A model generated the notes under the pieces. The model saw nothing but the letters and a program-made list of their open reading frames with translations. It ran no database searches and was not told the origin of the DNA. Shown piece by piece: positions 570-37,770 of a DNA stretch of 64,000 nt; within the stretch, counting starts at the first letter, position 1; each line of letters begins with the position of its first letter. A program made the translations under genes and the position numbers. The stretch is from Thermoplasmata archaeon (GTDB lineage Archaea > Thermoplasmatota > Thermoplasmata > Lutacidiplasmatales > UBA184): NCBI GenBank assembly GCA_021809545.1, contig JAKAYL010000001.1:21561-85560 (forward strand). The letters are read 5' to 3'.

Positions 570-2687
570 TCACTTCGAGCGGTACGCCACGAGGCGCGCG
601 AGCAGGGCCTCGATCTGAAGGCGCGGGGAGGCGCCCTCCGTGAGACGGAACTCCATCTCCGCGAGGTAATCGATGAGACGCATCTTGTCGAGGTCGTCGA
701 TCGGCAGGGTCTGCACTTGGCCGTGGATCGCCCGGAGGATGTCTTCTCCGCTGGCCCCTTTCTCCGTAAGGAGCGCCTGAAGCCGGTCCCGTGCCTCGCG
801 GAAGTGGCCTTCGAGCGCCGAGGTGATCAACCCCTCCACTTCTTTGGGCATCGGGAGCGCTGAGCTCTCGTACACGGTGTCGGCATCGACCTTGTCTGAG
901 ATCGCCGATGCCTGCTGCAGGATGTTCACCGATTGCCGCATGTCTCCCTGAGAGATGTGAAGTATGGCATCCAGGGCCGCGGGCTCCACCGTCTTTCCCT
1001 CGGACTTGGCGATCTGCCCCAGGTAGCGCTTCACGTCCTCCGCCTTCAACGGTCGGAATCGGAACACGGCACAGCGGGATTGGATCGGAGGGATGATCCG
1101 GGAGGAGTAGTTGCAGGAGATGACGAAGCGGCAGAGCGAGGCGTAGCGCTCCATGAGCCGGCGCAAGGAGGCCTGGGCCTCGGACGTGAGCATGTCCGCC
1201 TCGTCGAGGAAGAGGAGCTTGAACGGGCTGGAGCTCAAGGTGGTGCTCCGGGCGTAGTTCTTGATGGTCCCACGGACGGTGTCGATGCCACGTTCGTCGC
1301 TGTTATGGAGGAGCAAGGGGACGGTGCCTCCCCAGAACATCTCGCCTCCGGGCACCGATACATCGTAGACGTACTCGTGGCATTCCTGTTCTTCGATGGC
1401 GAGGATACGGAGCGGGTAGAGGTCCGATCCGGCCAGTTTTCTCCACCGTGAAGCACTCTCTCGCTCGTTGGGAGTGAGAGTGCCCTCGTCGATCCGATCC
1501 AAGATCTCCGTGATCGTGCTCTTGCGGGCACGCGGAGCCCTCTTTGCCGACAGAGAGTGACGGAGCGTGGACCGCCAAGGGAAGGACGGGGGCTGATCCA
1601 ATCCCTCGAGGAATTCGCAGAAGGGCCGGGAAGGGAGAAGCGCCGAATCCGGGGACGAAGAACCCTGTGACCAAGGGACCCTCGCCTCACGTCCACCCTC
1701 CGTGGGGCCGCTCTCGAGGACCGAGGTCCCGGTGAGCGAGACGGCATCGAGAATCCACGGTTTCGAAAAGGAATCCTCCCACAGGACCTGGTTCGACCCT
1801 CCCGGTGCCTGGCCGGCGTATTCCTCCTGGATCGCCCGCAGATGGGCCACGGTCGAATCCAGAGCGAAGGCGGGCGCCGCGTTGGCCCCGACCCTAGGAT
1901 CTACAAGAGGAAGTGTGTTCGGGAAGTATCGCATTCCCGCGATCGATGGGAAGCTGGGCGTGTCTTCCAGCTCGCCGTTGTACCGGGAAGCAGAGGGAAG
2001 AGTCTGGGCTAAGGGGTCCGCTACCGGTGGACGCTGCTTCTTCGGCACGGCTTTGCGTCCGGGAGCGTTGGGAGAGAGGTCGCTCGTGGTCGGCCTTCCT
2101 TCGGGTTCCTCCCGGAAGGTCAGCAGAAAGTCCCCTACCTTGAGTTCGGAGCTCTGGATCTTGGCAAGGCGCCCCTCCTTGTCGAGGATCATCACCGAGT
2201 GGTTGAGGGAGGTCCTCACAGATCCGCCCTCCACCAGGATATTGGCAAGCCGGGAAACCCGATGGCGGCTGATCACAGAGACCGGTTGGTACCCGACCTT
2301 GTGATCTCGATCGACCGATAGGATCTCCACATCCTTCACCCTCGTGGCATCCGGCCCTCCGGGGGAGAGGTATCGGGTGGCAAGATCGCCCATCGTCGTG
2401 CGCTGGGTCCTGCCCTGTATCCTCACCCGGACGGGAGTTTCCCCCGTCACACTGGCATTGAGCTCGAGAAAGGATTCCCGCCATTCGGCTCCGAACAGGT
2501 CGTGGGCCAATGCGAGCGCGGCCGTCGTCTTGCCGGTCCCGGGAGGGCCGGCGAAGAGAAGGTGCGGGAGGGACTTTCGGACCACGTAGGCCCGCAGGAG
2601 ATCGACGATGGCCTCCTGACCCACCATTTCGGAGAGTGACTTGGGACGGTACTTCTCGATCCAGATGTCCCCTGTGACCTTATCCAT
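570..2687 (-). CDS. rfcS: Replication factor C small subunit with an in-frame intein
   Basis: N-terminal WIEKYRP, Walker A GPPGTGKTT, LELNA|...|SDERGID, SRC motif (QSRCAVFRF) and FLDEAD Walker B. The extein totals 321 aa once the 384-aa insert is removed. ATG at 2685-2687. Confidence 0.9.
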   Translation of the reverse strand: MDKVTGDIWIEKYRPKSLSEMVGQEAIVDLLRAYVVRKSLPHLLFAGPPGTGKTTAALALAHDLFGAEWRESFLELNASVTGETPVRVRIQGRTQRTTMGDLATRYLSPGGPDATRVKDVEILSVDRDHKVGYQPVSVISRHRVSRLANILVEGGSVRTSLNHSVMILDKEGRLAKIQSSELKVGDFLLTFREEPEGRPTTSDLSPNAPGRKAVPKKQRPPVADPLAQTLPSASRYNGELEDTPSFPSIAGMRYFPNTLPLVDPRVGANAAPAFALDSTVAHLRAIQEEYAGQAPGGSNQVLWEDSFSKPWILDAVSLTGTSVLESGPTEGGREARVPWSQGSSSPDSALLPSRPFCEFLEGLDQPPSFPWRSTLRHSLSAKRAPRARKSTITEILDRIDEGTLTPNERESASRWRKLAGSDLYPLRILAIEEQECHEYVYDVSVPGGEMFWGGTVPLLLHNSDERGIDTVRGTIKNYARSTTLSSSPFKLLFLDEADMLTSEAQASLRRLMERYASLCRFVISCNYSSRIIPPIQSRCAVFRFRPLKAEDVKRYLGQIAKSEGKTVEPAALDAILHISQGDMRQSVNILQQASAISDKVDADTVYESSALPMPKEVEGLITSALEGHFREARDRLQALLTEKGASGEDILRAIHGQVQTLPIDDLDKMRLIDYLAEMEFRLTEGASPRLQIEALLARLVAYRSK
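1302..2453 (-). other. Intein inside rfcS (aa 79-462), Ser1 nucleophile, C-terminal HN, +1 Ser
   Basis: Block A-like SVTGETPV, block B-like TSLNH, and C-terminal ECHEYVYDVSVPGGEMFWGGTVPLLLHN followed by S. Splicing restores the canonical ELNASDERGI. Confidence 0.8.
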
Positions 2688-5121: not shown

Positions 5122-6897
5122 CTAGATCCCTCGGCCCGCCACGCCGGGGGCGTACCAACCCTCCCAGAAGTGTCTCCGGGTGGCAAGGAACCGGCGGACC
5201 TCCTGGGGCTGGGGCCTCTGGGCCGAGGGCTCGCCCCAGCCTTCGGGCAGAAGCTCGGCCCGGGAGAGGGGCGTCTCTCCGCCGTAGGCCCAGATGACGA
5301 AGGGGGAGAGCACCATGGGCAGGAGCCAGGTGGCATTGAAGAGGGCGGCGAGCGGGTTGAGCAGGAGGATCCCGAGAAGGAGGAAACCGAGCAGCACGAG
5401 CGAGTACCGGGACAGATGGAGCACCTCCCTCATCGTCAGCCGTTTCTCACTCTTGGGGGTGACCGGGATGGTGCGCAGCCCGGTGCCGAGGTAAGCAGCC
5501 ATGCTCAGGAATTCGTAAGGAAGCGAAATTGCGCTCACGGCGGAACTGAGCCACCGGTGGCTCCAGTAGGTCCCGAAGCCGATCCGGCAGTGGAGAAGGA
5601 TGGCCCAGAGCGGGATCGAACTCAGGAGGCCCACCACGAGCAGATAGCGGAGGATGGGGACCGACCAGAAGGTGCCAAGGGGGTTCGAGAGGAAGGCGGA
5701 GAGGAAAGCCGCGGCCGTGGACGAGGTCGAGGTGTACCCGTAGACGGTGAGCAGCATGCCCAGGGGAAGGAGGAGATTCGTGATGTGCCCGAGCGGGGTC
5801 TGCAGGAGATCGAACTTCTGCCCGGCACGGAGGCGGTACTTCCGGGAAAAGGTGAAGAACTCCATCGCCCCGCGGGTCCACTTGTTCTGTCGCTTGATGA
5901 ACCCCCGGACGTTTTCCGGGGTGGCCTCGTAGGTGTGGAGGGGGACAAAGCGGGAGTGCCAGTCCCGCTCGCCCAGGGCGCAAGCCGTGGCAAAGTCTTC
6001 CGAGACGAAGCCCTCCACGAATCCCCCGATCTCCGCGACCGCGGAGGTGCGCACGAGGACGTTGTGTCCGTAGCAGAAGACCGCGTCCATGGTGTTCGCG
6101 AGGGACTCCTCCCAGAGGAATTGGCCCACACGCGACATCGGGGCGAGGGTCCTCACGAAAGAAGTGTCCAGGTTCCAGATGTTGATCAGCCCCTGGAATA
6201 CCGCCACCCGCGCGTTCCGGGGATCCTCCGAGAACCGAAGGGCCTCCCCGACCCAGTCCGGGGGAAGGTAGGAGTCCGCGTCCAGCAGCAGGAAGTAATC
6301 GTATCCGCCGCCCCACTGGCGGAACCAGTCATTGATCGCGCCCGCCTTGAAACCCCGGCGGTTCGGCCGGCGCACCACACGGTACCCATGCTCGGCCGAG
6401 AGGGCATCGACGACCTCGCGGGCGGCGGCATCGCTCGAGTCGTCAAGGACGTAGACGTCGGCGGGGTAGTGCGACCGGATCGCCCCGAGGCACTCGGGCA
6501 CTACGTCGTTCATGGTGGTGTAGAGGATGGCCACCCGGGGTTGAGAGGTCAATGTTTCCAGCCGGGGAAGGGGAGGTGCCCCGCGGAGGTAGAGGGCGGC
6601 GATCTGCCGGGCCAGGCCGTAGGCTGCGCCGAGGAAGAGGAGGCTCAGGACGGCGAACAGGATCACCGAGGCAAGGTGATTCCACTGGATCACGAAGACC
6701 GCGAGGCCCACGGTCAGCGCCAGGTAGATGCCGGCCACGAGAGAGTAGAAACCGGTCCGGAAACGGGAGGTGGGAGGAATCTCTCGAGGAACCGGAACGA
6801 GGGCCCTCGGTGGGTTCGGGGGAACCGCTCCCCCGTTCCCTGGAAATGGGTTTCCTGGGAAGGGGGCAATGCCCCTGGGGCTTTCGAGACTGCTCAT
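5122..6897 (-). CDS. Family-2 glycosyltransferase, processive synthase-like (cellulose/chitin-synthase-like), polytopic membrane protein
   Basis: Two N-terminal TM helices, a GT-A core with LDDSSD and LDADS (DxD), a QxxRW-like RQNKWTRG, and 5-6 C-terminal TM helices. Confidence 0.75.
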   Translation of the reverse strand: MSSLESPRGIAPFPGNPFPGNGGAVPPNPPRALVPVPREIPPTSRFRTGFYSLVAGIYLALTVGLAVFVIQWNHLASVILFAVLSLLFLGAAYGLARQIAALYLRGAPPLPRLETLTSQPRVAILYTTMNDVVPECLGAIRSHYPADVYVLDDSSDAAAREVVDALSAEHGYRVVRRPNRRGFKAGAINDWFRQWGGGYDYFLLLDADSYLPPDWVGEALRFSEDPRNARVAVFQGLINIWNLDTSFVRTLAPMSRVGQFLWEESLANTMDAVFCYGHNVLVRTSAVAEIGGFVEGFVSEDFATACALGERDWHSRFVPLHTYEATPENVRGFIKRQNKWTRGAMEFFTFSRKYRLRAGQKFDLLQTPLGHITNLLLPLGMLLTVYGYTSTSSTAAAFLSAFLSNPLGTFWSVPILRYLLVVGLLSSIPLWAILLHCRIGFGTYWSHRWLSSAVSAISLPYEFLSMAAYLGTGLRTIPVTPKSEKRLTMREVLHLSRYSLVLLGFLLLGILLLNPLAALFNATWLLPMVLSPFVIWAYGGETPLSRAELLPEGWGEPSAQRPQPQEVRRFLATRRHFWEGWYAPGVAGRGI

Positions 6898-14647: not shown

Positions 14648-15420
14648 AACCTATGCCCTAATTGACATTGTCCTTACCGGCCACCTAACGAAGTTGCTGG
14701 GACTGGTCCCGGGACTCTCCCCCAGGATGACCGTATCGTGGAAACTCACGAAACGGATCCTGGCGGCAGGGCAGAGGAAGGCGGCCACCCTCAAGACAGC
14801 GGTCGGGCGGTCAAAGTGACCGGGATAATGGTCGCCACCGTCTACGCCGAAATGCCTGTGGTTGCGCACGCTCCGGCTGCTCAACCCCCCGTCCTCGGTG
14901 TTCCTGACAATGCTTCTGCCCCCTCTCTGTTTGACCAAATTACATCCCCGTGTGTGATAGCGCGTCCGCGTATATGCGCCTAGTGCAGACACGGGGCATG
15001 TTGCACCATACCGCATGCTACACTGTCTCTTCTAAACCATAGCGCCAAGGTCGAGCGGCGGCCACAAATCAATGATTGCCTGAACTGCGACCCTATCCCC
15101 GATAACGCCGCTCCTTCCCCACTAAGTTCTGGAAGTCTTACAAGGCCTCAACCAGTTGCGCCTTCTATGTCCGCAAGCTTCAGCATGGACATGTCGGGTT
15201 TGCCCCCATACACCGTTGCACTTCTTGCGCCATAGACCTGACTTAGTGGGTCGAAGGACTGACCTCTCGCGCTGTCGTTGAAAACAAGAAACTTGCCCCT
15301 CTCAATGCAAACCTGAGTTCTGGTCAACGCGCTCTCCTCCAAGAAGAGACGATTCCAAGCGGATACCTTGGTCAATTGCCGTGTCCTCTAGGTGAGACTT
15401 GGCCCACCTAAGCAGCAAAG

Positions 15421-15495
15421 CGGGCTCGCCGGGATTCGAACCCGGGTCGATGGCTCCGAAGGCCATCAGGATGGTCCAAACTACCCCACGAGCCC
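15421..15495 (-). tRNA. tRNA-Arg, anticodon most likely TCG; no encoded CCA
   Basis: RC reads GGGCUCG-UG-GGGU-AGUUUGGACC-AUCC-UG-AUGGC-CUUCGGA-GCCAU-CGAC-CCGGG-UUCGAAU-CCCGG-CGAGCCC-G. The acceptor stem is a perfect 7 bp, the T-arm is canonical (CCGGG/UUCGAAU/CCCGG), U33 and a purine at 37 are present. The anticodon arm is slightly non-canonical. Confidence 0.75.
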
Positions 15496-15517: not shown

Positions 15518-18500
15518 CTAAAGCTTCTCCTCGTGGTCCGGGTGGTCCAGATTCTTCAGGTTCGTCTGGGTCTGGGGGAAGAGCGTCAAGATGGAGTCCT
15601 CCAGGATCCGGACCCGTTGCTTCAGGTAATCCCCCACACCCTCCTGGGAGGCGAGCCCCTTCGAGAGCTCCAAGTACTTGGTGACCGCTCCCTCGTAGAC
15701 CGTGGGGGTGAGCTCCCCTCCGCAGAAGGCTTCCCCCACACGGGCCGTGCAGGTTGCGACGAGCGGGGGCCTTCGGTAGGACTCCCCGCACTTCCGGCAC
15801 CGGAACCGCTGCGTGGCGAAGCTCTTCATGTTCCCCATGATATCGGGGAGGAAGTGGTGGTTCAGGACCATGGCGATGGCGTCCCCGACGTCCACCGCGC
15901 TGATCTTCGAGACCACCGACATGGACTGGGCGACGACCTCGGCCATCCCCTCGCTGTCCCGATAGGCGGAGCGGGTGGGCCCTAGGGAGATGTCCGTCGT
16001 GTCGTGCGAGAAACCGTACCCGCGGAAGTGGCGGTCCGGGTTCTTCAGGTGCTTCCCCGCGGTCTCCATCAGGGCCTCGATGTCCTTGGGCCGGAGGCGG
16101 CGCTCCGCCGCTTCGTAGAACTCCAGGGGATAGCTCGACATGATGTCGACGTTCTGGGCCTCCTTGTCCACCTCCCTCAGGTCGAGCCTAGTCGTAAGGA
16201 CCAGGGGTTTGTCCATGAGGCCCCCCCGGTTGATGGGCAAGTACGCGAAGGAAAAGTTGAGGAGTCCGTCGAGAAGCAGGGTGACCGAATCCTCGTCGCC
16301 GTCGCAGTTCCTTCGCTTGGAGGCGTGGAAGGCGGGGTGGGCGAAGCACCCCTCGACGGGGGTATAGCCGATCAGCCGCGCGAGGACCCCGCCCGAGGTG
16401 TGCGGGGCGAGGGTGATCAACTGCTGTCCGATCAGGTCCTCCGGGGTTTCCGCCTCGTAGAACGGCTTGAGCCCGTAAAAGAGGGTCAGCTCGTCGTCGA
16501 CGTAGCGAGACAGCTTGAGGAGATAGTCCCCTCCCTCGTTGGAGAGGATGACGTCCTGGGGTTTGATCTCGACGATCTGTCGAGGTTCGGTGAGCACCGC
16601 TCCCTCGATGTCGAGGGTGTACCCCAGCTCGACCGCACGCTCCACGGAGAGTCCGATCTCCTCGGGGCGAAAGTGGGTGAGGGGGATGTCGGTGAGGTCG
16701 AAGCGGCTCGTCCCGTCCTGGTAGACATAGACCTCATGCTTTGCCCGCAGGATCCCCTTCTCGATGGGCTCCGGGGTCTTCTGGCGGGAGATGAGACCCC
16801 GGACCCCCTTGACCAGGGGGGGCTCCGTGATCTGGAGGTGGGCGCAGGCGTTCATGAACATGCTCCCGATGGGGATGGGAAGCTGCGCGTCCTTTCCCGT
16901 GGGCACCGTATGGGCGCCGCAATTGCAGAGGTTCCAGGGGGTCTGCTTGCCGCACTTCTCGCAGTGACGCACGCCCACCTCGACCTCCGCCTTCCCTCCC
17001 TCTCCTCCCGAGAGGAAGGCGTTGAGCGCCCGCATGGGTCCTCCGGCGGCCTCGACAGGGAAGAGGGAATGCACGGGGGGTTTCATCATCCGCAGGCGGG
17101 CCTTCTCCGGACGGCCCACGCGGGCTCCCACTCGGGAGGGGCCCCGGGCCTTGATCCGGATCCCTGCGACTCGGGAGACCTCCAAGAGCGCCTCCTGGGA
17201 ACCGCCCTCGATCTCGGCCTTCCGCATCAACCCTCCGTTCCGCTCCTCCAGTCCCAGACAGAGGAGGAAGGGAGAGGTGAGGAGCTTGTCGACGACGATC
17301 TCCCCGTTCCTTACGCTGTGCAGCAGCCCCAACGCGACGAGGAGATCCTTGATGGGTTTCTCCACCGGGAGGAGGAGGGCCCCGGAACCCACTTTGCCCT
17401 TCTTCTGTACTTCCTCGGAGAGGAATTTCACCTCCGATGCCTTGAGGTCGTGCCAGAAAAGGTTGAAGCGCGGGTGGAGGGGGACCATGTGGACGCGGGC
17501 GTCCTCGAGCGCCTCCTCCCAAGTGGGAACGACGGACCGCCGCCCGGGGGGGATCCCCTTCTTCCGCAGCTCCTCCAGGTGCCACGGGAGGGAGTAAGCC
17601 CCGGGGACCAACTGGTAGTTGTTCTCCTGGAACTCCCCGAAGGAGATCAGGATCTCCCCCAGGTCCACGATCTTCGTGACGGAGGGAAGGAGCGCTTTCG
17701 CCCTCTCCGCGTCGTGGATGGCCACAAGATCTCCGTTCTCGAGGAGCACGATCGGACCCTCGATGGTGTCGCAGGACGTCATCGCCGCGGCCTTGCCAGG
17801 ATACTCCAGCTTGACCTGGGTCCCGATGGCGACGAAGTCACCGAGGATCGTCATGGAGGCGGGATTGATGGAGGCGGCGGCGAGCCCGCTCGTGCGGGAG
17901 CGCCCGTACACGAGCCGGAACCCCCCCTTTCGGTGGGGATAGGAGAGGATGGGACGCCCCCCCACCGACTCTGCCAGGTACTTCGGGACCGGCCCCTCCT
18001 CGTTCGCCGGGGTCTTCCGGCCGAGCTGCTTGAGGAAGTCCCAGCCGTCGATGCCGAGCTTCTCCACGACGGAGCTCAACTTGCGAGCCTTGAGACACAG
18101 CCCCTCGGCGATGACGAGGCAGGCGCCGCCCCGGACCCCCGCGGTGTCCACCCGGCGGAGGTTCCGGAAGGCTGTGACCTCCTCGTCTCCCTCGGTGGCC
18201 TCCCCGTTGATGCAGACGGGAACCCCGCGCACCGCGACCTCGATCTCATCCGGGGTGGGGGAGTACTGCAGGTGCTGGAGGTGCTTGTAGAGGGGGATCT
18301 CCTCCTTGTAGCGGCCGATCTCCTCATCGAGGGCGACGTAGGGAGCGAGGTCGAGCTTCCGGCGCACGACGTCCGCTATGAGGACGGAAAGGGCCTGGGC
18401 CGTCCCCCCGGCCGCCCGGATCGGGCCGGCGTAGTAGAGGTCGACATAGGCTCCGTTCGGGTCCTCCCGGATCTTGGCCTGGACGAGCCCCTCGAGGGGG

Positions 18501-18838
18501 GCGACGAGGATCCCCTCCGTGAGGATCGCAAGCCCGGTCCGTACCGCCACGTCGAGGCGCTCCTCCCGGCTCCCCCGTGAGGTGTCCATCGCGAGCTCCT
18601 GGGCGACCGTGAGCGCGACCATGTCGCGGGAGATGTCCCGGGCGGAGAGTTCGCGGATGCGGTCCGCGACCCCCTCCACGTGCCATTTGGCGAGGAGTTT
18701 CTCCACCCGGCTCGCGAGATCGCTGGCGAGCGGGATCTCCACCTGGGTCTCCGGGTCGAGACCCTTGGCGCGGGCCGCCGAGGCGATCCCGTAGGCGTGC
18801 TTCACCCCCTTGTCCAGTTGGTTGAAGTACGCCTCCAT
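15518..18838 (-). CDS. DNA polymerase II large subunit DP2 (PolD catalytic subunit), intein-free
   Basis: 1,106 aa. The N-terminal MEAYFNQL...KHAYGIASAARAKGLDPE and overall length and conservation are typical of archaeal DP2. ATG at 18836-18838. Confidence 0.95.
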   Translation of the reverse strand: MEAYFNQLDKGVKHAYGIASAARAKGLDPETQVEIPLASDLASRVEKLLAKWHVEGVADRIRELSARDISRDMVALTVAQELAMDTSRGSREERLDVAVRTGLAILTEGILVAPLEGLVQAKIREDPNGAYVDLYYAGPIRAAGGTAQALSVLIADVVRRKLDLAPYVALDEEIGRYKEEIPLYKHLQHLQYSPTPDEIEVAVRGVPVCINGEATEGDEEVTAFRNLRRVDTAGVRGGACLVIAEGLCLKARKLSSVVEKLGIDGWDFLKQLGRKTPANEEGPVPKYLAESVGGRPILSYPHRKGGFRLVYGRSRTSGLAAASINPASMTILGDFVAIGTQVKLEYPGKAAAMTSCDTIEGPIVLLENGDLVAIHDAERAKALLPSVTKIVDLGEILISFGEFQENNYQLVPGAYSLPWHLEELRKKGIPPGRRSVVPTWEEALEDARVHMVPLHPRFNLFWHDLKASEVKFLSEEVQKKGKVGSGALLLPVEKPIKDLLVALGLLHSVRNGEIVVDKLLTSPFLLCLGLEERNGGLMRKAEIEGGSQEALLEVSRVAGIRIKARGPSRVGARVGRPEKARLRMMKPPVHSLFPVEAAGGPMRALNAFLSGGEGGKAEVEVGVRHCEKCGKQTPWNLCNCGAHTVPTGKDAQLPIPIGSMFMNACAHLQITEPPLVKGVRGLISRQKTPEPIEKGILRAKHEVYVYQDGTSRFDLTDIPLTHFRPEEIGLSVERAVELGYTLDIEGAVLTEPRQIVEIKPQDVILSNEGGDYLLKLSRYVDDELTLFYGLKPFYEAETPEDLIGQQLITLAPHTSGGVLARLIGYTPVEGCFAHPAFHASKRRNCDGDEDSVTLLLDGLLNFSFAYLPINRGGLMDKPLVLTTRLDLREVDKEAQNVDIMSSYPLEFYEAAERRLRPKDIEALMETAGKHLKNPDRHFRGYGFSHDTTDISLGPTRSAYRDSEGMAEVVAQSMSVVSKISAVDVGDAIAMVLNHHFLPDIMGNMKSFATQRFRCRKCGESYRRPPLVATCTARVGEAFCGGELTPTVYEGAVTKYLELSKGLASQEGVGDYLKQRVRILEDSILTLFPQTQTNLKNLDHPDHEEKL

Positions 18839-24781: not shown

Positions 24782-25912
24782 TCAGACCCGGGAAAGGAGC
24801 GTCACGAAGTTGTGGGAACCCATCCCCCCTACGGACTGGGCCAGCCCGACCCGGCGGGTGCCGGCCTGGAGCGGCCCGGCGGTCCCCTCCAGTTGCCGGG
24901 AGAGCTCTACGATCTGGATGAGCCCGGAAGCGCCCACGGGGTGTCCCCGACCCAGGATCCCACCGGAAGGATTCACAGCGACCGGTCCCGAAGGGGACCC
25001 GTTCCCGTCTCGGAGCCATCGGAGCGACTCCCCCGGTCCGCAGATCCCCACATCCTCGAGGTCGATGAGTTCGAAGGGGGCGAAGGCGTCGTGCACCTCG
25101 GCGACGCTCACCTCCTTCCGGGTGAGGTGCGCCATCTCGTAGGCGGCCTTCGCGGCGAGGCGGGTGGCAAGGAATCCGGTCAGGCCCTCCCTGAGGATGA
25201 CGTCCGTCCGGTCCGTCCCCTGTCCCAACCCCACCACCTCCACCCCGGTCCGGTCCCGGGTGAGGAGGACCGCGGCGGCGCCGTCGCTGACGGGAGAGAC
25301 GTGCAGGAGCCGGAGCGGGGAGGAGATGATGCGGCTCCCGTTCACCTCCTCAAGCGTCACGGGCTTCTGGAAATGGGCGAAGGGATTGCGGGAGGCCGCC
25401 GCCCGGTTCGCCACGGTCACGATCCCCACCTCATCGATGGGGAGATGGAAGTGGTCCAGGTACGCCTGGCTCACGAGGGCGGCCATGGAGGGCATGGTCG
25501 CCCCATGGAGGACCTCGAGGGGGGAGAGCGAGTGGGAGAGAACGGTCGTGACGTCGGTGAGCGGAACGGCCGTCATCTTCTCCCCGGCCACGACGAGGGC
25601 GGAGCGGTAGATTCCCGCGGCGACGGCGGCCGCGGCGGCGTGCAGGACGCCCGCGCCCGACGCAGAGGCTGCGTCCACGTGGAGGCCCGGGATCCCGCTG
25701 AGCTCCAGGGCGTCCGCGACCTTGGGGACGAGGTTCTCGAGACCGCAGAGGGGGCCGGGGGCCATGGACCCGACGAAGAGCGCCTCGGGCCGTGCGGCGC
25801 TCGCCGGGGCTCCCCGGAGGGCGTCCTTCCCGGCCTCGGTAAGGAGCTCGAGGAGGCCTTCCTCGCGCTTCCCGAAACGGGAGCGTCCGGTCGCTGCGAC
25901 GTGAACGCTCAT
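24782..25912 (-). CDS. Thiolase (SCP-x/archaeal acetyl-CoA acetyltransferase type)
   Basis: Start MSVHVAATGRSRFGKR, thiolase-fold conservation throughout, C-terminal GGxGxH-like segment. Start chosen at the internal Met; the longer ORF overlaps hjc. Confidence 0.85.
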   Translation of the reverse strand: MSVHVAATGRSRFGKREEGLLELLTEAGKDALRGAPASAARPEALFVGSMAPGPLCGLENLVPKVADALELSGIPGLHVDAASASGAGVLHAAAAAVAAGIYRSALVVAGEKMTAVPLTDVTTVLSHSLSPLEVLHGATMPSMAALVSQAYLDHFHLPIDEVGIVTVANRAAASRNPFAHFQKPVTLEEVNGSRIISSPLRLLHVSPVSDGAAAVLLTRDRTGVEVVGLGQGTDRTDVILREGLTGFLATRLAAKAAYEMAHLTRKEVSVAEVHDAFAPFELIDLEDVGICGPGESLRWLRDGNGSPSGPVAVNPSGGILGRGHPVGASGLIQIVELSRQLEGTAGPLQAGTRRVGLAQSVGGMGSHNFVTLLSRV

Positions 25913-26439
25913 GAGAACTCGAGGACCATCGAGAGGAAGTCCATGAGGGGCATGCCATCCTTCCACCGGAGGACCTGATTTCCCTTCTCCGTGGAGTCAA
26001 GGTTCGGGGTGCGGTTCGCGATGAAGCGGGCGATCCCCTTCGTGTCTCCGTTCGAGGCGGAGAAGAGGCGCCAGGGGTCCCCGTCCCGGACCCCCATGAG
26101 ACGGTACGCGTAGAGGAGGATGAGCCCCGAACGCAGCGTCTCCTTCGTGAGCTGGGCGTACTGCTCCATGTTGCGACCCCGGGAAGCGGTGAAATGGATC
26201 ACGGGCTCCCCCGAGCACTTCACTTCGATTGGGAGTGCGATGGAGTCCCGGAGGGCGAGAAGGTCGAAGCCGTGGGAGCCTGCCGCCCGGATGACGAGGA
26301 AGGGGCGCTCCTCGAGCTTGTCGAGCGCTGCGAGGCGTTCCGGTGAGGCGGCGAGCTTCCGGTACCGGTTGAGGAACTCCCGCTCCCCAGCCATGATGGC
26401 CTTGAGCTCCCGCTCGTAGGAGGAGTACCCTGACGGCAT
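25909..26439 (-). CDS. hjc: Holliday junction resolvase Hjc-like nuclease
   Basis: ERE...VIRAAGSHGFDLLA...IEVK resembles the Hjc catalytic core. ATG at 26437-26439 sits ~25 bp from the TATA at 26463-26472; the ORF-track start is TTG at 26463. Confidence 0.6.
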   Translation of the reverse strand: MPSGYSSYERELKAIMAGEREFLNRYRKLAASPERLAALDKLEERPFLVIRAAGSHGFDLLALRDSIALPIEVKCSGEPVIHFTASRGRNMEQYAQLTKETLRSGLILLYAYRLMGVRDGDPWRLFSASNGDTKGIARFIANRTPNLDSTEKGNQVLRWKDGMPLMDFLSMVLEFS

Positions 26440-26462
26440 CTTGAAAGGGGAAGGACCATACA

Positions 26463-26472
26463 ATAGATATAG
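26463..26472. promoter_or_regulatory. Bidirectional TATA-like element (ATAGATATAG) between hjc and the ATPase gene
   Basis: Near-palindromic AT-rich box ~25-30 bp from both divergent start codons (26439 minus, 26496/26502 plus). Confidence 0.4.
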
Positions 26473-26495
26473 CCTGGGACGATGGGAGGAAACTA

Positions 26496-27962
26496 GTGGC
26501 GATGGGTGTGGCTTCAGGGCATGGTCCTGACTTGGAGGTGGCGGAAGACGAGCTTCCGGTGGCCCGGACCGTCGTCAGTCTCCTGGAAGCTTCGCGCCGG
26601 CACCATGAGGCCCGGGGGAGCAAGAACCTCAGGGCCTCCTTCCGTCTCTCGGAGCTCAAGATGGCCCTGCTCCGGGAGAAGGTCTTCTGTGACCCCCTCC
26701 GGCTCCTCCAACGCCTGAAGCGGGTGGGGCTCCTCGAGGAGGTGGCCGTGACACGGGACGACCGGACCTACGTGCCGACGAGCGAGGAGGACCTCCTCGG
26801 GTTCCTGCGGACCAGCCTCGAGCTCTCCGAGCACGCCCTGGAGGCAGCCCTTGCCCCGCCGACGAACGAGTCCTACGAGATGCGGGAGAGCGATGCGGAG
26901 TACTTCCTCTACCTCAAAGAGCTGCTCGGGGAACGCCTGCGCGAGGCGCTCCGCTTCGCCGAGGAGTTCTCGCTCAAGGACCTCGTCCGCTACACACGCG
27001 AGCTCTTCGGCGAGGAGCTCTACCTCGACATCCTCATCGGGCTCCTCCACCAGTACGCCTTGAGCGACGTGCCCCTCATCGCCCCGACGGGCCGCTCGAC
27101 GGGGACGAGCGGCTTCAATCTCGCCCTCTTCGGCCCCCCCGGAACGGGGAAGACCTTCGCGATCGACGACATGGTCCGGGGGAACCCCAAGGCAGGGATC
27201 CCCGCCCACGGCCTTCCCGGACGGAACCGGTATTGCGGGGGGATCACCCCCGCCCAGTTCCTGCGGGTGGGCTCCTACTATCGGGGACGGACGTTCAACT
27301 TCATCGTGCCGGAATTCAACGACTGGTTCAAGTACCGGGGCATGGTCGAGCCCCTGAAGCTCGTGATGGAGCAACGGCCCGTCAAGTGGGAGACCACGCT
27401 CGGGACGATCGGCCCGTACGTCTTCACGTCGTACTTCTCGGTGAACTACAATGTGCGGGTGGAGGGGGGGAACGACTACTGGACGACGGTCGCAGACCCC
27501 AACTTCGCCGCCCTCGAGGACCGCATGCTGCTGCGCTTCCACCGGATGACCCGGGCCCGCTTCCGGGCGGTCGAGGCGAGCGCAGAGCGCCTCGAGCTCG
27601 GGGAGATCGACTTCTCGGGGGCGCAGCAAGTCCGGGACCACCTGACGCTCCTCCATGCGATCCAGACCGGGCATCCCCTCGTCAAACGCTGGAAACCCCG
27701 GGGGGTCGCGCTCTCCCGGAAGCTGTACGCGACGCTGCGAGGGGTCTCCGAGAAGGCCCTCGAGCGCTCCGCCTCCCCCAATTTCTCCCCCCGGTTGAAG
27801 AGCCGCGCCGTGAAGCTCGCGGCCGCCGGGGCCTTGGTAGGATATTTCACCCAGGAAGACGACGGGAACATCGAGGTCGGCAAGGAAGAGGAGGAGCTGG
27901 CGAGGCTCTTTTATGAAGAGGAGATCAGCGCGAGGGAAGGCAAAGGCTCCAGCCGCTACTGA
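26496..27962 (+). CDS. Uncharacterised P-loop NTPase with an N-terminal winged-helix-like domain
   Basis: Walker A LFGPPGTGKTF at ~aa 205 and candidate Walker B FNFIVPEF. The N-terminal SFRLSELKMALLREKVFCDPLRLLQRLKRVGLLEEV is wHTH-like. No match to a named family by eye. Confidence 0.7.
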   Translation: MAMGVASGHGPDLEVAEDELPVARTVVSLLEASRRHHEARGSKNLRASFRLSELKMALLREKVFCDPLRLLQRLKRVGLLEEVAVTRDDRTYVPTSEEDLLGFLRTSLELSEHALEAALAPPTNESYEMRESDAEYFLYLKELLGERLREALRFAEEFSLKDLVRYTRELFGEELYLDILIGLLHQYALSDVPLIAPTGRSTGTSGFNLALFGPPGTGKTFAIDDMVRGNPKAGIPAHGLPGRNRYCGGITPAQFLRVGSYYRGRTFNFIVPEFNDWFKYRGMVEPLKLVMEQRPVKWETTLGTIGPYVFTSYFSVNYNVRVEGGNDYWTTVADPNFAALEDRMLLRFHRMTRARFRAVEASAERLELGEIDFSGAQQVRDHLTLLHAIQTGHPLVKRWKPRGVALSRKLYATLRGVSEKALERSASPNFSPRLKSRAVKLAAAGALVGYFTQEDDGNIEVGKEEEELARLFYEEEISAREGKGSSRY

Positions 27963-28398
27963 ACCCCCGGCGAGGGCTCGCCGGTACTCCTCCCCGAACC
28001 GGGGAGACTTCCACCGGGCCCCCTCCGACGTCATCGAGGCGCTCGCCCTCCGCGCCCTCTATTCCTACGGGGGAGCCATCGATACCCAGAAGCGGCTCTA
28101 CGAGGAGGTCATGGACCAGTTGAAGGGGGAGGGAAAGGACCTCCGGATCGGCCCCGAACGGATGCGGACGATCCTTCTTTCCTCGAAGCGCATCGTCGTC
28201 GAGGTGCGCTACGCCGCCCGGCCCGTCTCCTCTGCGATCCGGGTCTGCCCTGTCTGCCGGAAACCCGTGGTCGAGATCCACAATGCGACGCTCGACGGGG
28301 GTAAGGTGGTGGCCGGGTTCAAGTGCACGAGCTGCACCTTCTGGACCCCGCTCAAGCGGCGCGTGCCCTGCCGCTACACGTTCCGGGCCGCCCGCTAA
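27913..28398 (+). CDS. Small basic protein with a C-terminal zinc ribbon
   Basis: VCPVCRK...KCTSC; overlaps the ATPase 3' end by 50 bp. 161 aa. Confidence 0.5.
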   Translation: MKRRSARGKAKAPAATEPPARARRYSSPNRGDFHRAPSDVIEALALRALYSYGGAIDTQKRLYEEVMDQLKGEGKDLRIGPERMRTILLSSKRIVVEVRYAARPVSSAIRVCPVCRKPVVEIHNATLDGGKVVAGFKCTSCTFWTPLKRRVPCRYTFRAAR

Positions 28399-28485: not shown

Positions 28486-29721
28486 GTGACCGCTCTGGAG
28501 TACCTTGGGATACCCGTACAGATGCTTGGTCTATCGGCCTTACAGGAGGTGTTACTTGGTGTCTTCGGACTTCTCCTCCTGGCTACGGTTATTGCGGCCG
28601 CTGTTCAACGGCTGAAACCCTTCCCGGCGCTCTTCTACTCGGTCCTCTTCGGCGTTGTCATCCTCTTCTGTTTGTTCCCCGGAGTCCTGGCCTCCATTTT
28701 CGAAGGTCAACCCGGGCAGTCCGCCGCCTACCTCAGGTTCGATTTCCTTTTCGTCTTCTTCATCATCCTGGCGTACGCCTTTGTCACGCGGGAGTATGAT
28801 CACCACCGCGTGTTCTCCCAACAGGTCCGCTCGCAGGCCCTCGCGCACGCACTCCCGCTCTTGGAGTCTCAGAGCAAGGTCCCGCAGGGGATGACCCGCG
28901 TGGTCATCCTGGTCAGCGCCCGAAACGAGGAGAAGACCATCGGGGATGTGCTGGCGGGACTACCCACCCAGGTGGGCAAGCTCGAGTTCAAGACGGTCGT
29001 CGTGGATGATGGGTCCACCGATGCGACCCCGATCATCGCTCGTGGGGCCGGCGCCATCACGGTGCGTCACGGAACCTCGCTTGGGATCGGGGCCCCCCTC
29101 ACCACAGGATTCGTGGCCGCTTTGCAGCTCAACTGCCAGTACCTCCTCCACATGGATGCGGATGGCCAGCACAACCCCGACGACCTGATGCGCATCTTGT
29201 CCCCGTTGCTCGCGGGGCGGGCCGACATGATCATCGGATCGCGCTTCCGCGACATCAACCCCACCCACCTTTCCATCACTCGAACCTTCGGGATCCGTCT
29301 GTATACCAAGCTCGTGAACTCCTTCACGGGCTACCGCATCACGGACGCTACCTCGGGCTACTGGGGGATCCGGGCGGACAAGATCCCGGACATCATCTTC
29401 CACGCCGAGTACAACTACGCAGTGGAGATGCTCCTACGGGCCGGCCGGAACAAGGTCCGTTTGGACGAGGTCCCCGTGGTCCAGCTCCCCAGGAGCGGGG
29501 GCCATTCTCAGTTCCACAGCATCTCTCTTTTCCTCCTCTACCACCCGAGGGCTCTGGCGCAGATTGTCTCCGCATACTCCCATCCGGGCCCGAAGTTCCC
29601 CGAGTTTCCGCGCAGGCCCATGGAGGACCGAACTCACCTGATCGAGGAGAAGGCACCCAGTTCCCACCTTCTCGAGACACGGGTCCGAGGGGACGTGCAC
29701 TCCCACCCCGTGGAAAAGTAG
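28486..29721 (+). CDS. Family-2 glycosyltransferase (dolichyl-phosphate sugar transferase-like) with N-terminal TM helices
   Basis: VVILVSARNEE, VVVDDGSTD and HMDADGQH (DxD). Three N-terminal TM helices. GTG start; an alternative ATG lies at 28522. Confidence 0.8.
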   Translation: MTALEYLGIPVQMLGLSALQEVLLGVFGLLLLATVIAAAVQRLKPFPALFYSVLFGVVILFCLFPGVLASIFEGQPGQSAAYLRFDFLFVFFIILAYAFVTREYDHHRVFSQQVRSQALAHALPLLESQSKVPQGMTRVVILVSARNEEKTIGDVLAGLPTQVGKLEFKTVVVDDGSTDATPIIARGAGAITVRHGTSLGIGAPLTTGFVAALQLNCQYLLHMDADGQHNPDDLMRILSPLLAGRADMIIGSRFRDINPTHLSITRTFGIRLYTKLVNSFTGYRITDATSGYWGIRADKIPDIIFHAEYNYAVEMLLRAGRNKVRLDEVPVVQLPRSGGHSQFHSISLFLLYHPRALAQIVSAYSHPGPKFPEFPRRPMEDRTHLIEEKAPSSHLLETRVRGDVHSHPVEK

Positions 29722-35575: not shown

Positions 35576-36682
35576 TCATTCCTGGATCCCCGCCGCTTCC
35601 GCATAGATCGCGAGGGTGCCCTCGATCATGTGTTCGACGCTGAACTCCCCCACGCGCCGTCGTCCGCGCTCGACGAGGTCGCGCGCCAGCGAGGGGGAGC
35701 TCAACAACCGAACGATTCCAGATGCGAGCTCGGGGACGGAGTCCCGGGGCACCACGATGCCCGAGTTCCCGACGAACTCGGGCATGTCCAACCAGTCGTT
35801 CACCACGACGGGAGTACCCACATGCATGGCCTGCATGATCGAGAGGCTGAACCCGATCCGGGAAGGATAGACGAGGGCTCCCACCGACCGGAGCTTCTCC
35901 CCGAGGGCCTGCTCGGAGAGGAACCCGCAGAACTCCACGCTCTTCTCAATCCCTAACTTCCGCGCGAGGGCACGCATGTTCTCGGTCTCTGCGCTCTGGC
36001 CCGCGAACCAGAGCCGCGCCTTCGGGAACGCCGAGAGGACCTCGGGCATGGCGCGCAGGACGAGATCTCCCCCACGGGCCCAAGGGTTCCAGCTCCCGAG
36101 GAAGAGCAGGTCCTCGGGCTTTCTCTCGACAGGGGCGATGGGCTTGTTGGGGACGCCCAGGTCCCGGGGATCGACCCCGATCGGGACCACGCGCACCCGT
36201 TCCTCGGGGATGCCGAGGTGGCGCACCAGGTAATCCTTGGCGAACTGGTAGGTCACGATCACTCGCGTGCTCCGGCGGGCCGAGACCGTGATGCACCACC
36301 GCAGGAAGGTGTAGCGGACGGGGTTCGCGCTCCAGAGGTAGAAGGGCATCACGTCGTGGATGGTGGTGACGAAGGGGGTCCGGCCGGTGAGGGCGAGCGC
36401 CCGGCCCCCCACCGGGGAGACCGCGTGCCAGAGGGGTGCGCGCTGGCGCATGAGCTTCGCGAAAATGGAGGGCTCCCCCATCAGCAACTGCTCGATGTTG
36501 TTCGCGAAGGGGCCGTTCTCCACGATCCCGTAGGGCACGGTCTGGGCGCGGTACTCACGGTCGAGATAGAAGAGATACCGGTCGATGCCCCGCCCGGTGT
36601 CGGGACGGGGGACGTACGGGTAGCCCAGTATCTCTACCCGGGGGAGGTGGGAAGGGTGCCCCATCCTCTCGACGCGGTCCAT
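35576..36682 (-). CDS. Glycosyltransferase family 4 / GT-B (group 1)
   Basis: The C-terminal GT-B domain carries an EX7E-like region. The start is set at the ATG at 36680-36682; the longer ORF to 37276 is a spurious Arg/Gly-rich extension overlapping the next gene. Confidence 0.8.
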   Translation of the reverse strand: MDRVERMGHPSHLPRVEILGYPYVPRPDTGRGIDRYLFYLDREYRAQTVPYGIVENGPFANNIEQLLMGEPSIFAKLMRQRAPLWHAVSPVGGRALALTGRTPFVTTIHDVMPFYLWSANPVRYTFLRWCITVSARRSTRVIVTYQFAKDYLVRHLGIPEERVRVVPIGVDPRDLGVPNKPIAPVERKPEDLLFLGSWNPWARGGDLVLRAMPEVLSAFPKARLWFAGQSAETENMRALARKLGIEKSVEFCGFLSEQALGEKLRSVGALVYPSRIGFSLSIMQAMHVGTPVVVNDWLDMPEFVGNSGIVVPRDSVPELASGIVRLLSSPSLARDLVERGRRRVGEFSVEHMIEGTLAIYAEAAGIQE

Positions 36683-36759
36683 CGGACGTCCCCATCCCTC
36701 CGAGGGAATATGAGGATTTGCGACCGGGACCGTGCCGAGGGAGGAGGTCCCGGACACGC

Positions 36760-37770
36760 CTACCTGCCGAGGGAACTGACCCGGGTGCCTTCCTTGGCGG
36801 CCCGGTAGAGTGCCTGGATGATCTCCACCACGCGCATCCCGTCCCGACCGCTCTCGAGGTGGGGAGAGGGCGAATGGACGGACCCGAGGAACTCGTGGGC
36901 CTCCCGTTTGAAGGACTGCTTCTCGGCCTTGGAGAAGTCGAACGCCTGGGTCTGCTTGTCCTTGCCGACGACCGTGACGAGCGCCGCGTCCCCCCGGCTG
37001 TCGATGGCCATGCGTCCCTCCGTGCCGTAGGCCTCTAGGAAGAAGTAGCCGTTCCACTCGGTCCATGAGGCTTGGAAAAGAATGGGCATGCCGCCCTGCC
37101 CGACGAGGGTGGCCAGGAAATTGTCTTCGATGGAGGGGGGGAGTTGGTGTAACCGCTGGAACGACTGTCCCGATACCTGGTCCACGTCGCCGAAGAGCCA
37201 CCGGAGGATGTCGAGGATGTGCGGTCCGTTGTCCATCAGAGTCCCGCCGCCGATGATGGCAGGGTCCTGCGACCAAGGCTCGGTCTTGAGGACCCAGCCC
37301 TCGTGCCCGATCCAGCCCCGTGCGAAGAGGGGCTTTCCAATCGCGCCGTGCTCCACGAGCTCCTTCGCCTTTTCCACGTTCTCAAAGAAACGCACGTTCG
37401 ACCCGACCATCAGGGAGAGTTTCCGGGACTCTGCCTCCCGGACCATCTCGCGGGCGTCTGCGACCGTGATGCTGAGCGGCTTCTCACAGAAGACGTGCTT
37501 TCCGCCGCGCAGGGCGCGCAGGGCGAGGGGAGCGTGCGTGGAGTTCGGCGTGCTGATGAAGACCGCGCCAACGGCGGGGTCGTCGATGGCCGCCAAGGGG
37601 TCGGGGACCGCCCGGCAACCAAGTTCCTTGGCCACGGCCTCCGCACGGGAAAAATCGGTATCGGAAACCACCTCGAGATGGGAGGTGGGATGCGAGGTCG
37701 TGGCGACCGCCCGGCGCTTTCCCATCCGGCCGCACCCGACGACCGCCACCCCGAGTTTCTTCTCTGACAT
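36760..37770 (-). CDS. Gfo/Idh/MocA-family NAD(P)-dependent sugar oxidoreductase
   Basis: Rossmann motif GVAVVGCGRMGKRRA and EKP motif (FCEKPLS). Confidence 0.85.
   Translation of the reverse strand: MSEKKLGVAVVGCGRMGKRRAVATTSHPTSHLEVVSDTDFSRAEAVAKELGCRAVPDPLAAIDDPAVGAVFISTPNSTHAPLALRALRGGKHVFCEKPLSITVADAREMVREAESRKLSLMVGSNVRFFENVEKAKELVEHGAIGKPLFARGWIGHEGWVLKTEPWSQDPAIIGGGTLMDNGPHILDILRWLFGDVDQVSGQSFQRLHQLPPSIEDNFLATLVGQGGMPILFQASWTEWNGYFFLEAYGTEGRMAIDSRGDAALVTVVGKDKQTQAFDFSKAEKQSFKREAHEFLGSVHSPSPHLESGRDGMRVVEIIQALYRAAKEGTRVSSLGR

What the first reader, a model, noticed from the sequence alone, without database searches (positions are those of the whole stretch)
26439..28398. Unknown wHTH-P-loop ATPase plus zinc-ribbon gene pair, divergently co-promoted with the Hjc resolvase
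A 488-aa protein (26496-27962) has an N-terminal winged-helix-like region and then a compact P-loop domain, with Walker A LFGPPGTGKTF and a possible Walker B NFIVPEF only ~50 aa later. I cannot place it in any named ATPase family by eye. Orc1/Cdc6 has the opposite domain order, and PINA, HerA, PilT and IstB have different P-loops. Its 3' end overlaps a 161-aa basic protein that ends in a C4 zinc ribbon, so the two are translationally coupled. The pair shares a 32-56 bp intergenic region and one near-palindromic TATA-like box (ATAGATATAG) with the divergent hjc gene, which suggests co-regulation with Holliday-junction resolution. The combination wHTH-ATPase + Zn-ribbon + Hjc is not a described system as far as I know. 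It is a candidate recombination/repair accessory or a defence module.
Basis: partly seen in the sequence, partly recalled or inferred. Interest (0 to 1): 0.7.

Follow-up and report, generated by a model that had tools for sequence, protein, structure and literature searches.

The report
MCM-like ATPase with zinc-ribbon partner
The "unplaceable" ATPase belongs to an unstudied, archaea-wide family whose motor domain has the fold of the MCM replicative helicase; in one group of Thermoplasmata it sits next to a small zinc-ribbon protein and shares a promoter with a Holliday-junction-resolvase-like gene, which hints at a DNA repair or recombination role but does not show one.

Summary
All three genes, the Walker motifs, the winged helix, the C4 zinc ribbon and the shared TATA-like box are present and conserved in relatives.

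The family is small (116 representatives at 50% identity). It occurs in Thermoplasmata, Bathyarchaeota, Hodarchaeota, Korarchaeota and Thermoproteota, and some members carry inteins at active-site motifs.

The order thiolase<-hjc<-|->ATPase->Zn-ribbon is kept in about 80 Thermoplasmata species. It was absent from the eight contexts examined in other lineages. Thiolase is linked to hjc just as tightly, so the recombination reading stays a weak hypothesis.

One distant subfamily is fused in an operon to a DNA methyltransferase inside a defence island.

Verdict: a new variant of a known kind, of moderate interest.

The parts
26496..27962 (+). MCM-like AAA+ ATPase with an N-terminal winged helix (488 aa from GTG 26496; 486 aa if ATG 26502 is the start)
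26544..26777 (+). N-terminal winged-helix domain (residues about 17-94)
27132..27155 (+). Walker A, GPPGTGKT (residues 213-220)
   Evidence: Read from the sequence. G213, G218 and K219 are at least 90% conserved across the diverse alignment A3.
27297..27323 (+). Walker B region NFIVPEFND (residues 268-276). Pro272 sits where MCM has the Walker B Asp; E273 is conserved.
   Evidence: Strand E268-271 in the model. E273 is nearly invariant, and position 272 is Pro or Thr across the family. Compare the MCM motif IDEFDKM seen in PDB MCM sequences.
27444..27452 (+). Sensor-1 region N317-Y-N319, at the end of strand beta-4 and preceded by a pre-sensor-1 beta-hairpin (residues 295-309)
   Evidence: N319 is invariant and N317 nearly invariant. 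The hairpin is E295-300/E303-309 in the model.
27522..27524 (+). Putative arginine finger R343, in the motif ALEDRM
   Evidence: Nearly invariant in A3. Its position, just before strand E344-348, corresponds to the MCM motif SRFD.
27792..27794 (+). Putative sensor-2 arginine R433, in the motif FSPRLKSRAVKLA at the start of lid helix 433-448
   Evidence: Nearly invariant in A3. Helix H433-448 in the model. The assignment as sensor 2 is an inference from its position.
27913..28398 (+). Basic 161-aa protein with a helical N-domain and a C-terminal C4 zinc ribbon (CPVC at residues 112-115, CTSC at 138-141; nt 28246-28335)
   Evidence: ORF. Found directly downstream of the ATPase in 71 of 80 assessable loci. 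Invariant cysteines and the WT/RRVP.RY tail. Only generic zinc-ribbon hits in the libraries.
26463..26472 (.). Near-palindromic TATA-like box ATAGATATAG in the hjc/ATPase spacer
   Evidence: Sequence. It occurs once in the window. An equivalent AT-rich box is kept in 51 related spacers at the geometry expected for leaderless transcripts in both directions.
25909..26441 (-). Hjc-family nuclease gene (176 aa from ATG 26441; the longest ORF starts at TTG 26463)
   Evidence: Pfam Hjc E 5e-8, 33.2 bits against cutoff 21.1. NCBIfam Hjc equivalog only 19.7 bits against 70. The catalytic E, D and E-x-K residues align to P. furiosus Hjc 1gef. Present upstream of the ATPase in every locus with enough sequence.
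24782..25912 (-). Thiolase gene, translationally coupled to hjc (ATGA overlap at 25909-25912). Context only, not part of the proposed module.
   Evidence: Pfam Thiolase_C_1 E 2e-37. The overlap is read from the sequence. hjc-thiolase adjacency is kept in all assessable loci.

Best explanation
What it is. The 486/488-aa protein belongs to an uncharacterised, archaea-wide family of MCM-like AAA+ ATPases that has no Pfam model. A winged-helix domain and a three-helix linker take the place of the MCM N-terminal OB/zinc domain. They are followed by an AAA+ core with a pre-sensor-1 beta-hairpin and an MCM-type lid.

How it probably works. Walker A Lys/Thr, the Walker B Glu, the sensor-1 Asn, a putative arginine finger and a putative sensor-2 Arg are all conserved. 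The protein therefore most likely assembles into a ring, probably a hexamer, with ATP sites at subunit interfaces. It would work on DNA as an ATP-driven translocase, remodeller or switch, brought to DNA by its N-terminal DNA-binding module. In other members that module is swapped for HhH domains or a PD-(D/E)xK nuclease. The lack of a helix-2 insert and the Pro/Thr in place of the Walker B Asp argue against a classical processive MCM helicase.

The local arrangement. In one Thermoplasmata clade the gene is tightly coupled to a small, very basic protein made of a helical domain plus a C4 zinc ribbon, probably a nucleic-acid-binding adaptor subunit. The pair is transcribed divergently from a single central TATA box shared with an hjc-thiolase operon.

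Most likely role. A chromosomal, vertically inherited DNA-transaction function: recombination, repair or replication restart, with junction processing alongside Hjc as one option.

What is shown and what is inferred. Shown: gene structure, conservation, fold class, motif conservation, synteny and promoter geometry. Inferred: ring assembly, action on DNA, partnership with the Zn-ribbon protein, and any link to Hjc.

For: Motifs. K219, E273, N317/N319, R343 and R433 are invariant or nearly so across members only 17-43% identical to the window protein.

Link to DNA. The N-terminal modules are winged helix, HHH_5 (4 members), AbiEi wHTH and Mrr_cat nuclease.

Cellular rather than mobile. Synteny is stable across 84 loci. 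GC equals the window average. No relatives were found in 2.9 million viral contigs. Neighbours in Thermofilum, Bathyarchaeota and Hodarchaeota are housekeeping genes. Inteins sit right after Walker B and right before the arginine-finger motif in three cluster representatives, a pattern typical of conserved replication and repair proteins.

Partner. The Zn-ribbon gene abuts or overlaps the ATPase gene in 71 of 80 loci.

Shared promoter. There is one AT-rich box about 26 nt from the hjc start and about 31 nt from the ATPase start.

Nuclease link. One family member has a PD-(D/E)xK (Mrr_cat) domain fused where the winged helix is, and Hjc is also a PD-(D/E)xK nuclease.
Against: No sequence method links the family to MCM. 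There is no Pfam MCM hit, no PDB hit with the family profiles, and hhalign against three PDB MCM cores gives only 9.6% probability over the Walker A region. The MCM assignment therefore rests on a predicted structure and on motif reading.

The Walker B Asp is Pro or Thr, which could mean weak or altered hydrolysis. The helix-2 insert, which is needed for MCM unwinding, appears to be absent.

The Hjc link is confined to one clade, and thiolase, an unrelated gene, is linked just as tightly. The other lineages examined show no hjc or Zn-ribbon neighbour.

Nine of 80 assessable loci lack a detectable Zn-ribbon gene.

There are no expression, interaction or biochemical data.
Confidence: 0.55

Rival explanations
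1. It is a defence or mobile-element module. The Hjc-like PD-(D/E)xK nuclease, the MCM-like ATPase and the Zn-ribbon protein would form a restriction-like system, comparable to BREX BrxL paired with a methyltransferase, and not a housekeeping DNA-repair device.
Against: In the Thermoplasmata clade the locus sits in a fixed chromosomal position across 84 loci, next to a thiolase gene. Its GC content is unremarkable. There are no PADLOC hits beyond the P-loop and no relatives in viral contigs. No methyltransferase lies beside it here. Protein conservation is very high, 59-79% identity with a near-invariant core, which is unusual for fast-evolving defence genes. The Hjc-like gene is co-translated with a lipid-pathway thiolase.
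Confidence: 0.15
2. It is an ATP-dependent DNA-binding switch or regulator (Orc1/Cdc6-like or MoxR-like in logic), not a motor. The winged helix targets specific sites, ATP binding controls assembly, and the Zn-ribbon protein is a co-regulator with a TFE-like layout.
Against: The catalytic Glu, the sensor-1 residue, the arginine finger and the sensor-2 residue are all strictly conserved, which is expected for active inter-subunit hydrolysis. Inteins target the active-site motifs. The similarity of the Zn-ribbon protein to TFE is not significant.
Confidence: 0.2
3. The adjacency to hjc has no functional meaning. The ATPase and Zn-ribbon pair does something unrelated to junction resolution, and the shared promoter is inherited gene order in one order-level clade.
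For: The hjc-thiolase link is conserved just as well and is even translationally coupled, although the two genes have no plausible shared function. None of the eight contexts examined outside the clade has hjc nearby. All 84 syntenic loci come from related Thermoplasmata MAGs.
Against: Synteny survives divergence down to about 30% identity in the Zn-ribbon protein and 35% in Hjc, while the outer flanking genes change. The single central TATA box is kept at a fixed geometry. A PD-(D/E)xK nuclease is fused to the ATPase in another lineage.
Confidence: 0.5

Closest known systems
Archaeal and eukaryotic MCM replicative helicase (AAA+ domain; e.g. PfMCM-AAA 4r7z, MCM2-7, M. kandleri homologue 3f8t)
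   Different: About 12% identity, with no HMM or profile-profile detection. There is no N-terminal helical/Zn/OB domain, no helix-2 insert and no C-terminal winged helix; the winged helix is N-terminal instead. The Walker B Asp is Pro or Thr. The protein is 488 aa against about 650-700 aa.
MCM8/MCM9 (eukaryotic recombination-repair MCM paralogues)
   Different: They are eukaryotic, keep the full MCM N-terminal domain and form a heterohexamer. Nothing here supports orthology.
MCM-like 'self-loading' helicases of mobile elements (SCCmec Cch 5dgk, SaPI Rep 8tch, phage DUF3987 primase-helicases)
   Different: They are structurally more distant than MCM itself. They are carried by mobile elements, whereas this family is chromosomal here and absent from viral contigs.
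BREX BrxL with the PglX methyltransferase
   Different: BrxL has a Lon-like C-terminal domain. The window locus has no methyltransferase and no PADLOC hit.
RuvAB-RuvC, and archaeal Hjc with PINA or Hjm (junction motor plus resolvase)
   Same: The concept is shared: an AAA+ ring motor encoded or acting together with a junction resolvase. The window places an Hjc-family nuclease and an AAA+ ATPase on one bidirectional promoter.

Membership tests
MCM family (Pfam PF00493 / replicative helicase) | Significant match to the MCM sequence profile | tested here: not met
   None of the 36 diverse members gives a Pfam MCM hit at E<=1. Family profiles find no MCM in the PDB. hhalign against three PDB MCM cores gives 9.6% probability. 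One UniRef entry (Thermofilum N186_07075) is nonetheless named 'MCM domain-containing protein'.
MCM family | AAA+ core fold closest to MCM | tested here: met
MCM family | Walker A GxxGxGK[ST] | tested here: met
   GPPGTGKT at residues 213-220, conserved across the family.
MCM family | Walker B 'IDEFDKM' with the Mg-coordinating Asp | tested here: not met
   The motif is V-P-E-F-N-D-W. The Asp position is Pro272 (Thr in other lineages). The Glu is conserved.
MCM family | Pre-sensor-1 beta-hairpin | tested here: met
   Strands 295-300 and 303-309 lie directly before the sensor-1 strand 313-323 in the model.
MCM family | Helix-2 insert beta-hairpin | tested here: not met
   Only 21 residues, holding a short helix (252-260), separate beta-2 (244-246) from beta-3 (268-271). 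The hhalign alignment to MCM ends exactly at this point.
MCM family | Arginine finger (SRFD) and sensor-2 arginine | tested here: met
   R343 (EDRM) and R433 (SPRL) are nearly invariant at the corresponding positions. Their functional assignment is inferred.
MCM family | N-terminal domain with OB fold and zinc motif, and a C-terminal winged helix | tested here: not met
   Residues 1-190 form a winged helix plus three long helices, and the chain ends after the lid helix at about residue 480.
MCM family | Hexameric 3'-5' DNA helicase activity | not testable with these tools
   Needs biochemistry or an experimental structure.
Hjc Holliday-junction resolvase (the divergent neighbour) | Pfam Hjc above the gathering score, and the catalytic E...D...E-x-K residues | tested here: met
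   PF01870 scores 33.2 bits against 21.1. The alignment to 1gef places E, D (FDLLAL) and E-V-K.
Hjc Holliday-junction resolvase | NCBIfam equivalog score (NF040854) | tested here: not met
   19.7 bits against a cutoff of 70. The protein has extra N- and C-terminal segments: 176-184 aa against about 123-140 aa.
Known anti-phage defence systems (PADLOC) | Match to a defence-protein model | tested here: not met
   Only a P-loop-length match to MkoA, 13 bits.

The most novel reading that the evidence does not exclude
The winged-helix MCM-like ring and its zinc-ribbon partner are an unrecognised archaeal recombination motor, an MCM-derived functional counterpart of RuvAB or MCM8/9. On this reading the Zn-ribbon/helical protein supplies in trans a DNA-binding module that the ATPase lacks, and the complex migrates or remodels junctions for the co-expressed Hjc-family nuclease. 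The wider family, found in Asgard, Bathyarchaeia, Korarchaeota and Thermoproteota, would then be a second, non-replicative branch of MCM evolution.
Probability: 0.15. Interest if true: 0.8.

Novelty: new variant of a known kind. Interest (0 to 1): 0.55.

Why it matters
MCM is the core replicative helicase of archaea and eukaryotes. Its known offshoots are few: MCM8/9, inactivated paralogues, and helicases of mobile elements. This family would add another: strongly conserved, carrying inteins, spread over several archaeal phyla, with an MCM-type motor but a different front end, and invisible to all standard annotation profiles. Archaeal junction-processing motors are still poorly defined, so a conserved promoter shared with an Hjc-family nuclease gives a concrete hypothesis to test. 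The methyltransferase-coupled subfamily also suggests that the same motor has been recruited into a BREX-like defence setting. At the least, the family merits a profile model and a name, so that more than 1,300 'hypothetical proteins' can be annotated.

Tried and rejected
1. Sequence-family assignment. Pfam, NCBIfam, PADLOC, PHROGs, and PDB phmmer/hmmsearch with three different profiles gave only P-loop-length matches.

2. First AF2 model. It was built from 31 close homologues and left the conserved core (residues 208-348) at pLDDT below 50, so it was unusable. A model rebuilt from a diverse alignment succeeded.

3. hhalign of the family against three real MCM core sequences, recovered from PDB search output, was inconclusive at 9.6% probability.

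4. The afdb50 fold library was not available.

5. The first genome scan, with a very diverse alignment, failed for lack of conserved columns. The repeat scan returned only the 80 closest loci, all Thermoplasmata, so the taxonomy of distant members had to be taken from protein names.

Profile searches gave only generic zinc-ribbon hits and non-significant TFIIE-alpha and L34e hits.

7. Literature searches for an MCM-like archaeal family with this architecture found nothing relevant. This is not proof that it is undescribed.

8. Rejected ideas: an Orc/Cdc6, RFC, STAND or KAP identity (fold scores); a viral origin; recent horizontal acquisition (GC content).
Full report
OBSERVATION. The ORFs are as described. 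The ATPase ORF at 26496-27962 (+) encodes 488 aa from a GTG. An identical database protein of 486 aa starts at the ATG at 26502. The ORF at 27913-28398 (+) encodes 161 aa and overlaps the ATPase 3' end by 50 nt. The Hjc-like ORF on the minus strand ends at 25909 and starts at ATG 26441 (176 aa, like the 177-182 aa of relatives) or at TTG 26463. ATAGATATAG lies at 26463-26472 and occurs once in the window. The hjc stop overlaps the start of a thiolase gene in an ATGA at 25909-25912 (Pfam). The window is ordinary chromosome at 65% GC. It also holds an intein-containing RFC small subunit, PolD DP2 and glycosyltransferases. The gene pair has the same GC as its surroundings.

THE ATPASE BY SEQUENCE. 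Nothing beyond P-loop-length matches appears in Pfam, NCBIfam, PADLOC, PHROGs or PDB sequences. Even so, it has more than 1,290 homologues, all unnamed and without Pfam domains. The closest are 59-79% identical and come from Thermoplasmata MAGs. The core is almost invariant: FGPPGTGKTF, HGLPGRNRYCGG, FNFIVPEFNDWF, MVEPLKLVMEQR, VNYNVR, DPNFAALEDRMLLRFH, FSPRLK.RA. An exhaustive profile search of 1.84 billion cluster representatives found only 116 matches. The family is therefore small and closed, and it does not merge into a large AAA+ family at the sequence level. Distant members are 17-43% identical and mostly 460-640 aa. They differ mainly at the N-terminus.

THE ATPASE BY STRUCTURE. A model built from close homologues failed in the core. 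A model built from the diverse alignment gave pLDDT 90.3 and pTM 0.80. Its layout is:
- a winged helix at residues about 17-94;
- three long helices at 97-188;
- an AAA+ core at 190-350, with a beta-hairpin (295-309) before the sensor-1 strand;
- a helical lid at 353-480.

There are three departures from MCM. There is no OB/zinc N-terminal domain. There is no helix-2 insert: only 21 residues lie between beta-2 and beta-3. Pro, or Thr in other lineages, replaces the Walker B Asp. Profile-profile comparison with three MCM cores was not significant, so homology rests on fold and motifs. I therefore call it MCM-like and do not file it as an MCM.

THE FAMILY. Source names place members in Bathyarchaeota, Hodarchaeota, Methanodesulfokora, Thermofilum adornatum (UniRef name 'MCM domain-containing protein'), Hadesarchaea, Archaeoglobaceae, Fervidicoccaceae and a candidate bacterial division. 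A scan of one genome per species (185,579 genomes) found 350 stretches that encode a relative. N-terminal modules vary: winged helix, HHH_5 in four members, AbiEi-type wHTH, and an Mrr_cat PD-(D/E)xK nuclease in one. This points to DNA as the substrate. Three cluster representatives carry inteins, at two sites...EFNDWFKY|intein|SGMVE... and ...DPNF|intein|SAVEDRM.... Both sites lie at active-site motifs, as is usual for inteins in conserved replication and repair proteins. No relative was found in 2.9 million viral contigs.

THE ZINC-RIBBON PARTNER. The word-based homologue search found only three relatives. tblastn finds the gene directly downstream of the ATPase in 71 of 80 assessable Thermoplasmata loci, at 27-64% identity. 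It is arginine-rich. It has a helical N-domain and an invariant CPVC-x22-CxxC-.WT...RR.P.RY tail. Library hits are generic zinc ribbons. The TFIIE-alpha and L34e matches (E about 0.08) are not significant. Gene spacing ranges from an overlap to a gap of about 40 nt, so co-transcription is likely. The 50-nt overlap is a feature of this window's lineage.

THE hjc LINK. The neighbour passes the Pfam Hjc threshold and has the catalytic E, D and E-x-K residues. It fails the NCBIfam equivalog cutoff and carries extra terminal segments. The order thiolase<-hjc<-|->ATPase->Zn-ribbon is kept in every locus with enough sequence. One locus has a 1.3-kb insertion in the spacer, and several have 100-200 nt spacers with two AT-rich boxes. 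In 51 loci with 40-70 nt spacers there is a single AT-rich box. Its centre is a median of 26 nt from the hjc start and 31 nt from the ATPase start. That is the geometry expected for an archaeal TATA box serving leaderless or near-leaderless transcripts in both directions; this last step is an inference from general knowledge of archaeal promoters.

Two facts limit what this means. First, hjc is tied just as firmly to thiolase, an unrelated metabolic gene. Second, none of the contexts outside this clade has hjc or the Zn-ribbon gene: Hodarchaeota, Thermofilum, Bathyarchaeota and five metagenomic contigs. Two of those contexts instead place the ATPase in an overlapping operon behind an N6_N4_Mtase+NmeDI_C gene, among defence-island-type genes.

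INTERPRETATION. The best-supported reading is a ring-forming, DNA-directed MCM-like AAA+ machine with a clade-specific zinc-ribbon adaptor, serving a chromosomal DNA-transaction role. Conservation of the arginine finger and the sensor residues argues for active inter-subunit ATP sites. The missing helix-2 insert and the altered Walker B argue for something other than a classical processive helicase. The recombination hypothesis, with Hjc as partner, has three supports: the shared promoter, the precedent of MCM8/9, and one nuclease fusion. It remains a minority probability. The defence reading fits the methyltransferase-linked subfamily better than it fits this locus.

VERDICT. The 'unplaceable' ATPase is placed at the fold level. 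The family is uncharacterised and unannotated. The system-level claim is plausible but unproven. The finding is a new variant of a known kind, with interest 0.55.

Noticed in passing
window 570-2687 (-): A 705-aa RFC small-subunit homologue is interrupted by an intein. Pfam hits are Rep_fac_C, AAA, and Intein_splicing spanning residues 118-462.
   Followed up: no
window 15518-18838 (-) and 15420-15495 (-): The PolD large subunit DP2 (all three Pfam domains, E about 1e-128) has a tRNA-Arg(TCG) gene immediately downstream. It lies about 7.6 kb from the ATPase. Replication genes are therefore in the region but not adjacent.
   Followed up: no
window 25909-25912; L001 5409-5412: The hjc stop and the thiolase start overlap in an ATGA. 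This hjc-thiolase operon (followed by DUF35/OB in some genomes) is conserved across about 80 Thermoplasmata loci. It is an odd pairing of a DNA nuclease with a mevalonate-pathway-type enzyme.
   Followed up: partly
L086 1-3998; L092 3314-7689: A distant subfamily of the ATPase (P0128, P0324, about 562-564 aa) starts at the last base of a 767-895-aa N6_N4_Mtase+NmeDI_C gene. Its neighbours are AAA_14/DUF4143, nucleotidyltransferase pairs and DUF2283/DUF4258. This may be a two-gene, BREX-like or restriction-modification-like module.
   Followed up: partly
proteins P0155, P0177, P0137 (family members, not in the window): Inteins, some with LAGLIDADG domains, are inserted at two sites in the ATPase: after EFNDWFKY (just past Walker B) and before (A/S)xEDRM (the arginine-finger motif).
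   Followed up: yes
protein P0148 residues 17-144: One family member has an N-terminal Mrr_cat PD-(D/E)xK nuclease domain (25.2 bits, cutoff 21) in place of the winged helix.
   Followed up: partly
L082 3643-4983: In one Thermoplasmata genome a 1.3-kb segment is inserted between hjc and the ATPase. This breaks the shared spacer but keeps both genes.
   Followed up: no
L093 3398-11564: In one metagenomic lineage the ATPase is preceded, with a 10-nt gap, by a 530-aa gene with no Pfam hit. It is followed by small unknown genes, a TackOD1-domain protein and a DUF87 (HerA-like) ATPase.
   Followed up: no
L006 (JAKBKR010000001.1): A contig with the full thiolase-hjc-ATPase-Zn-ribbon arrangement (79% identity) is labelled 'MAG: bacterium' in its record. 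The label is probably wrong for a Thermoplasmata bin.
   Followed up: no
window 5122-6897 (-), 28486-29721 (+), 35576-37276 (-): Several glycosyltransferase genes (GT2, GT2 and GT4 families) lie around the locus. The GT2 gene directly downstream of the Zn-ribbon gene is kept in only one related locus (L006).
   Followed up: no
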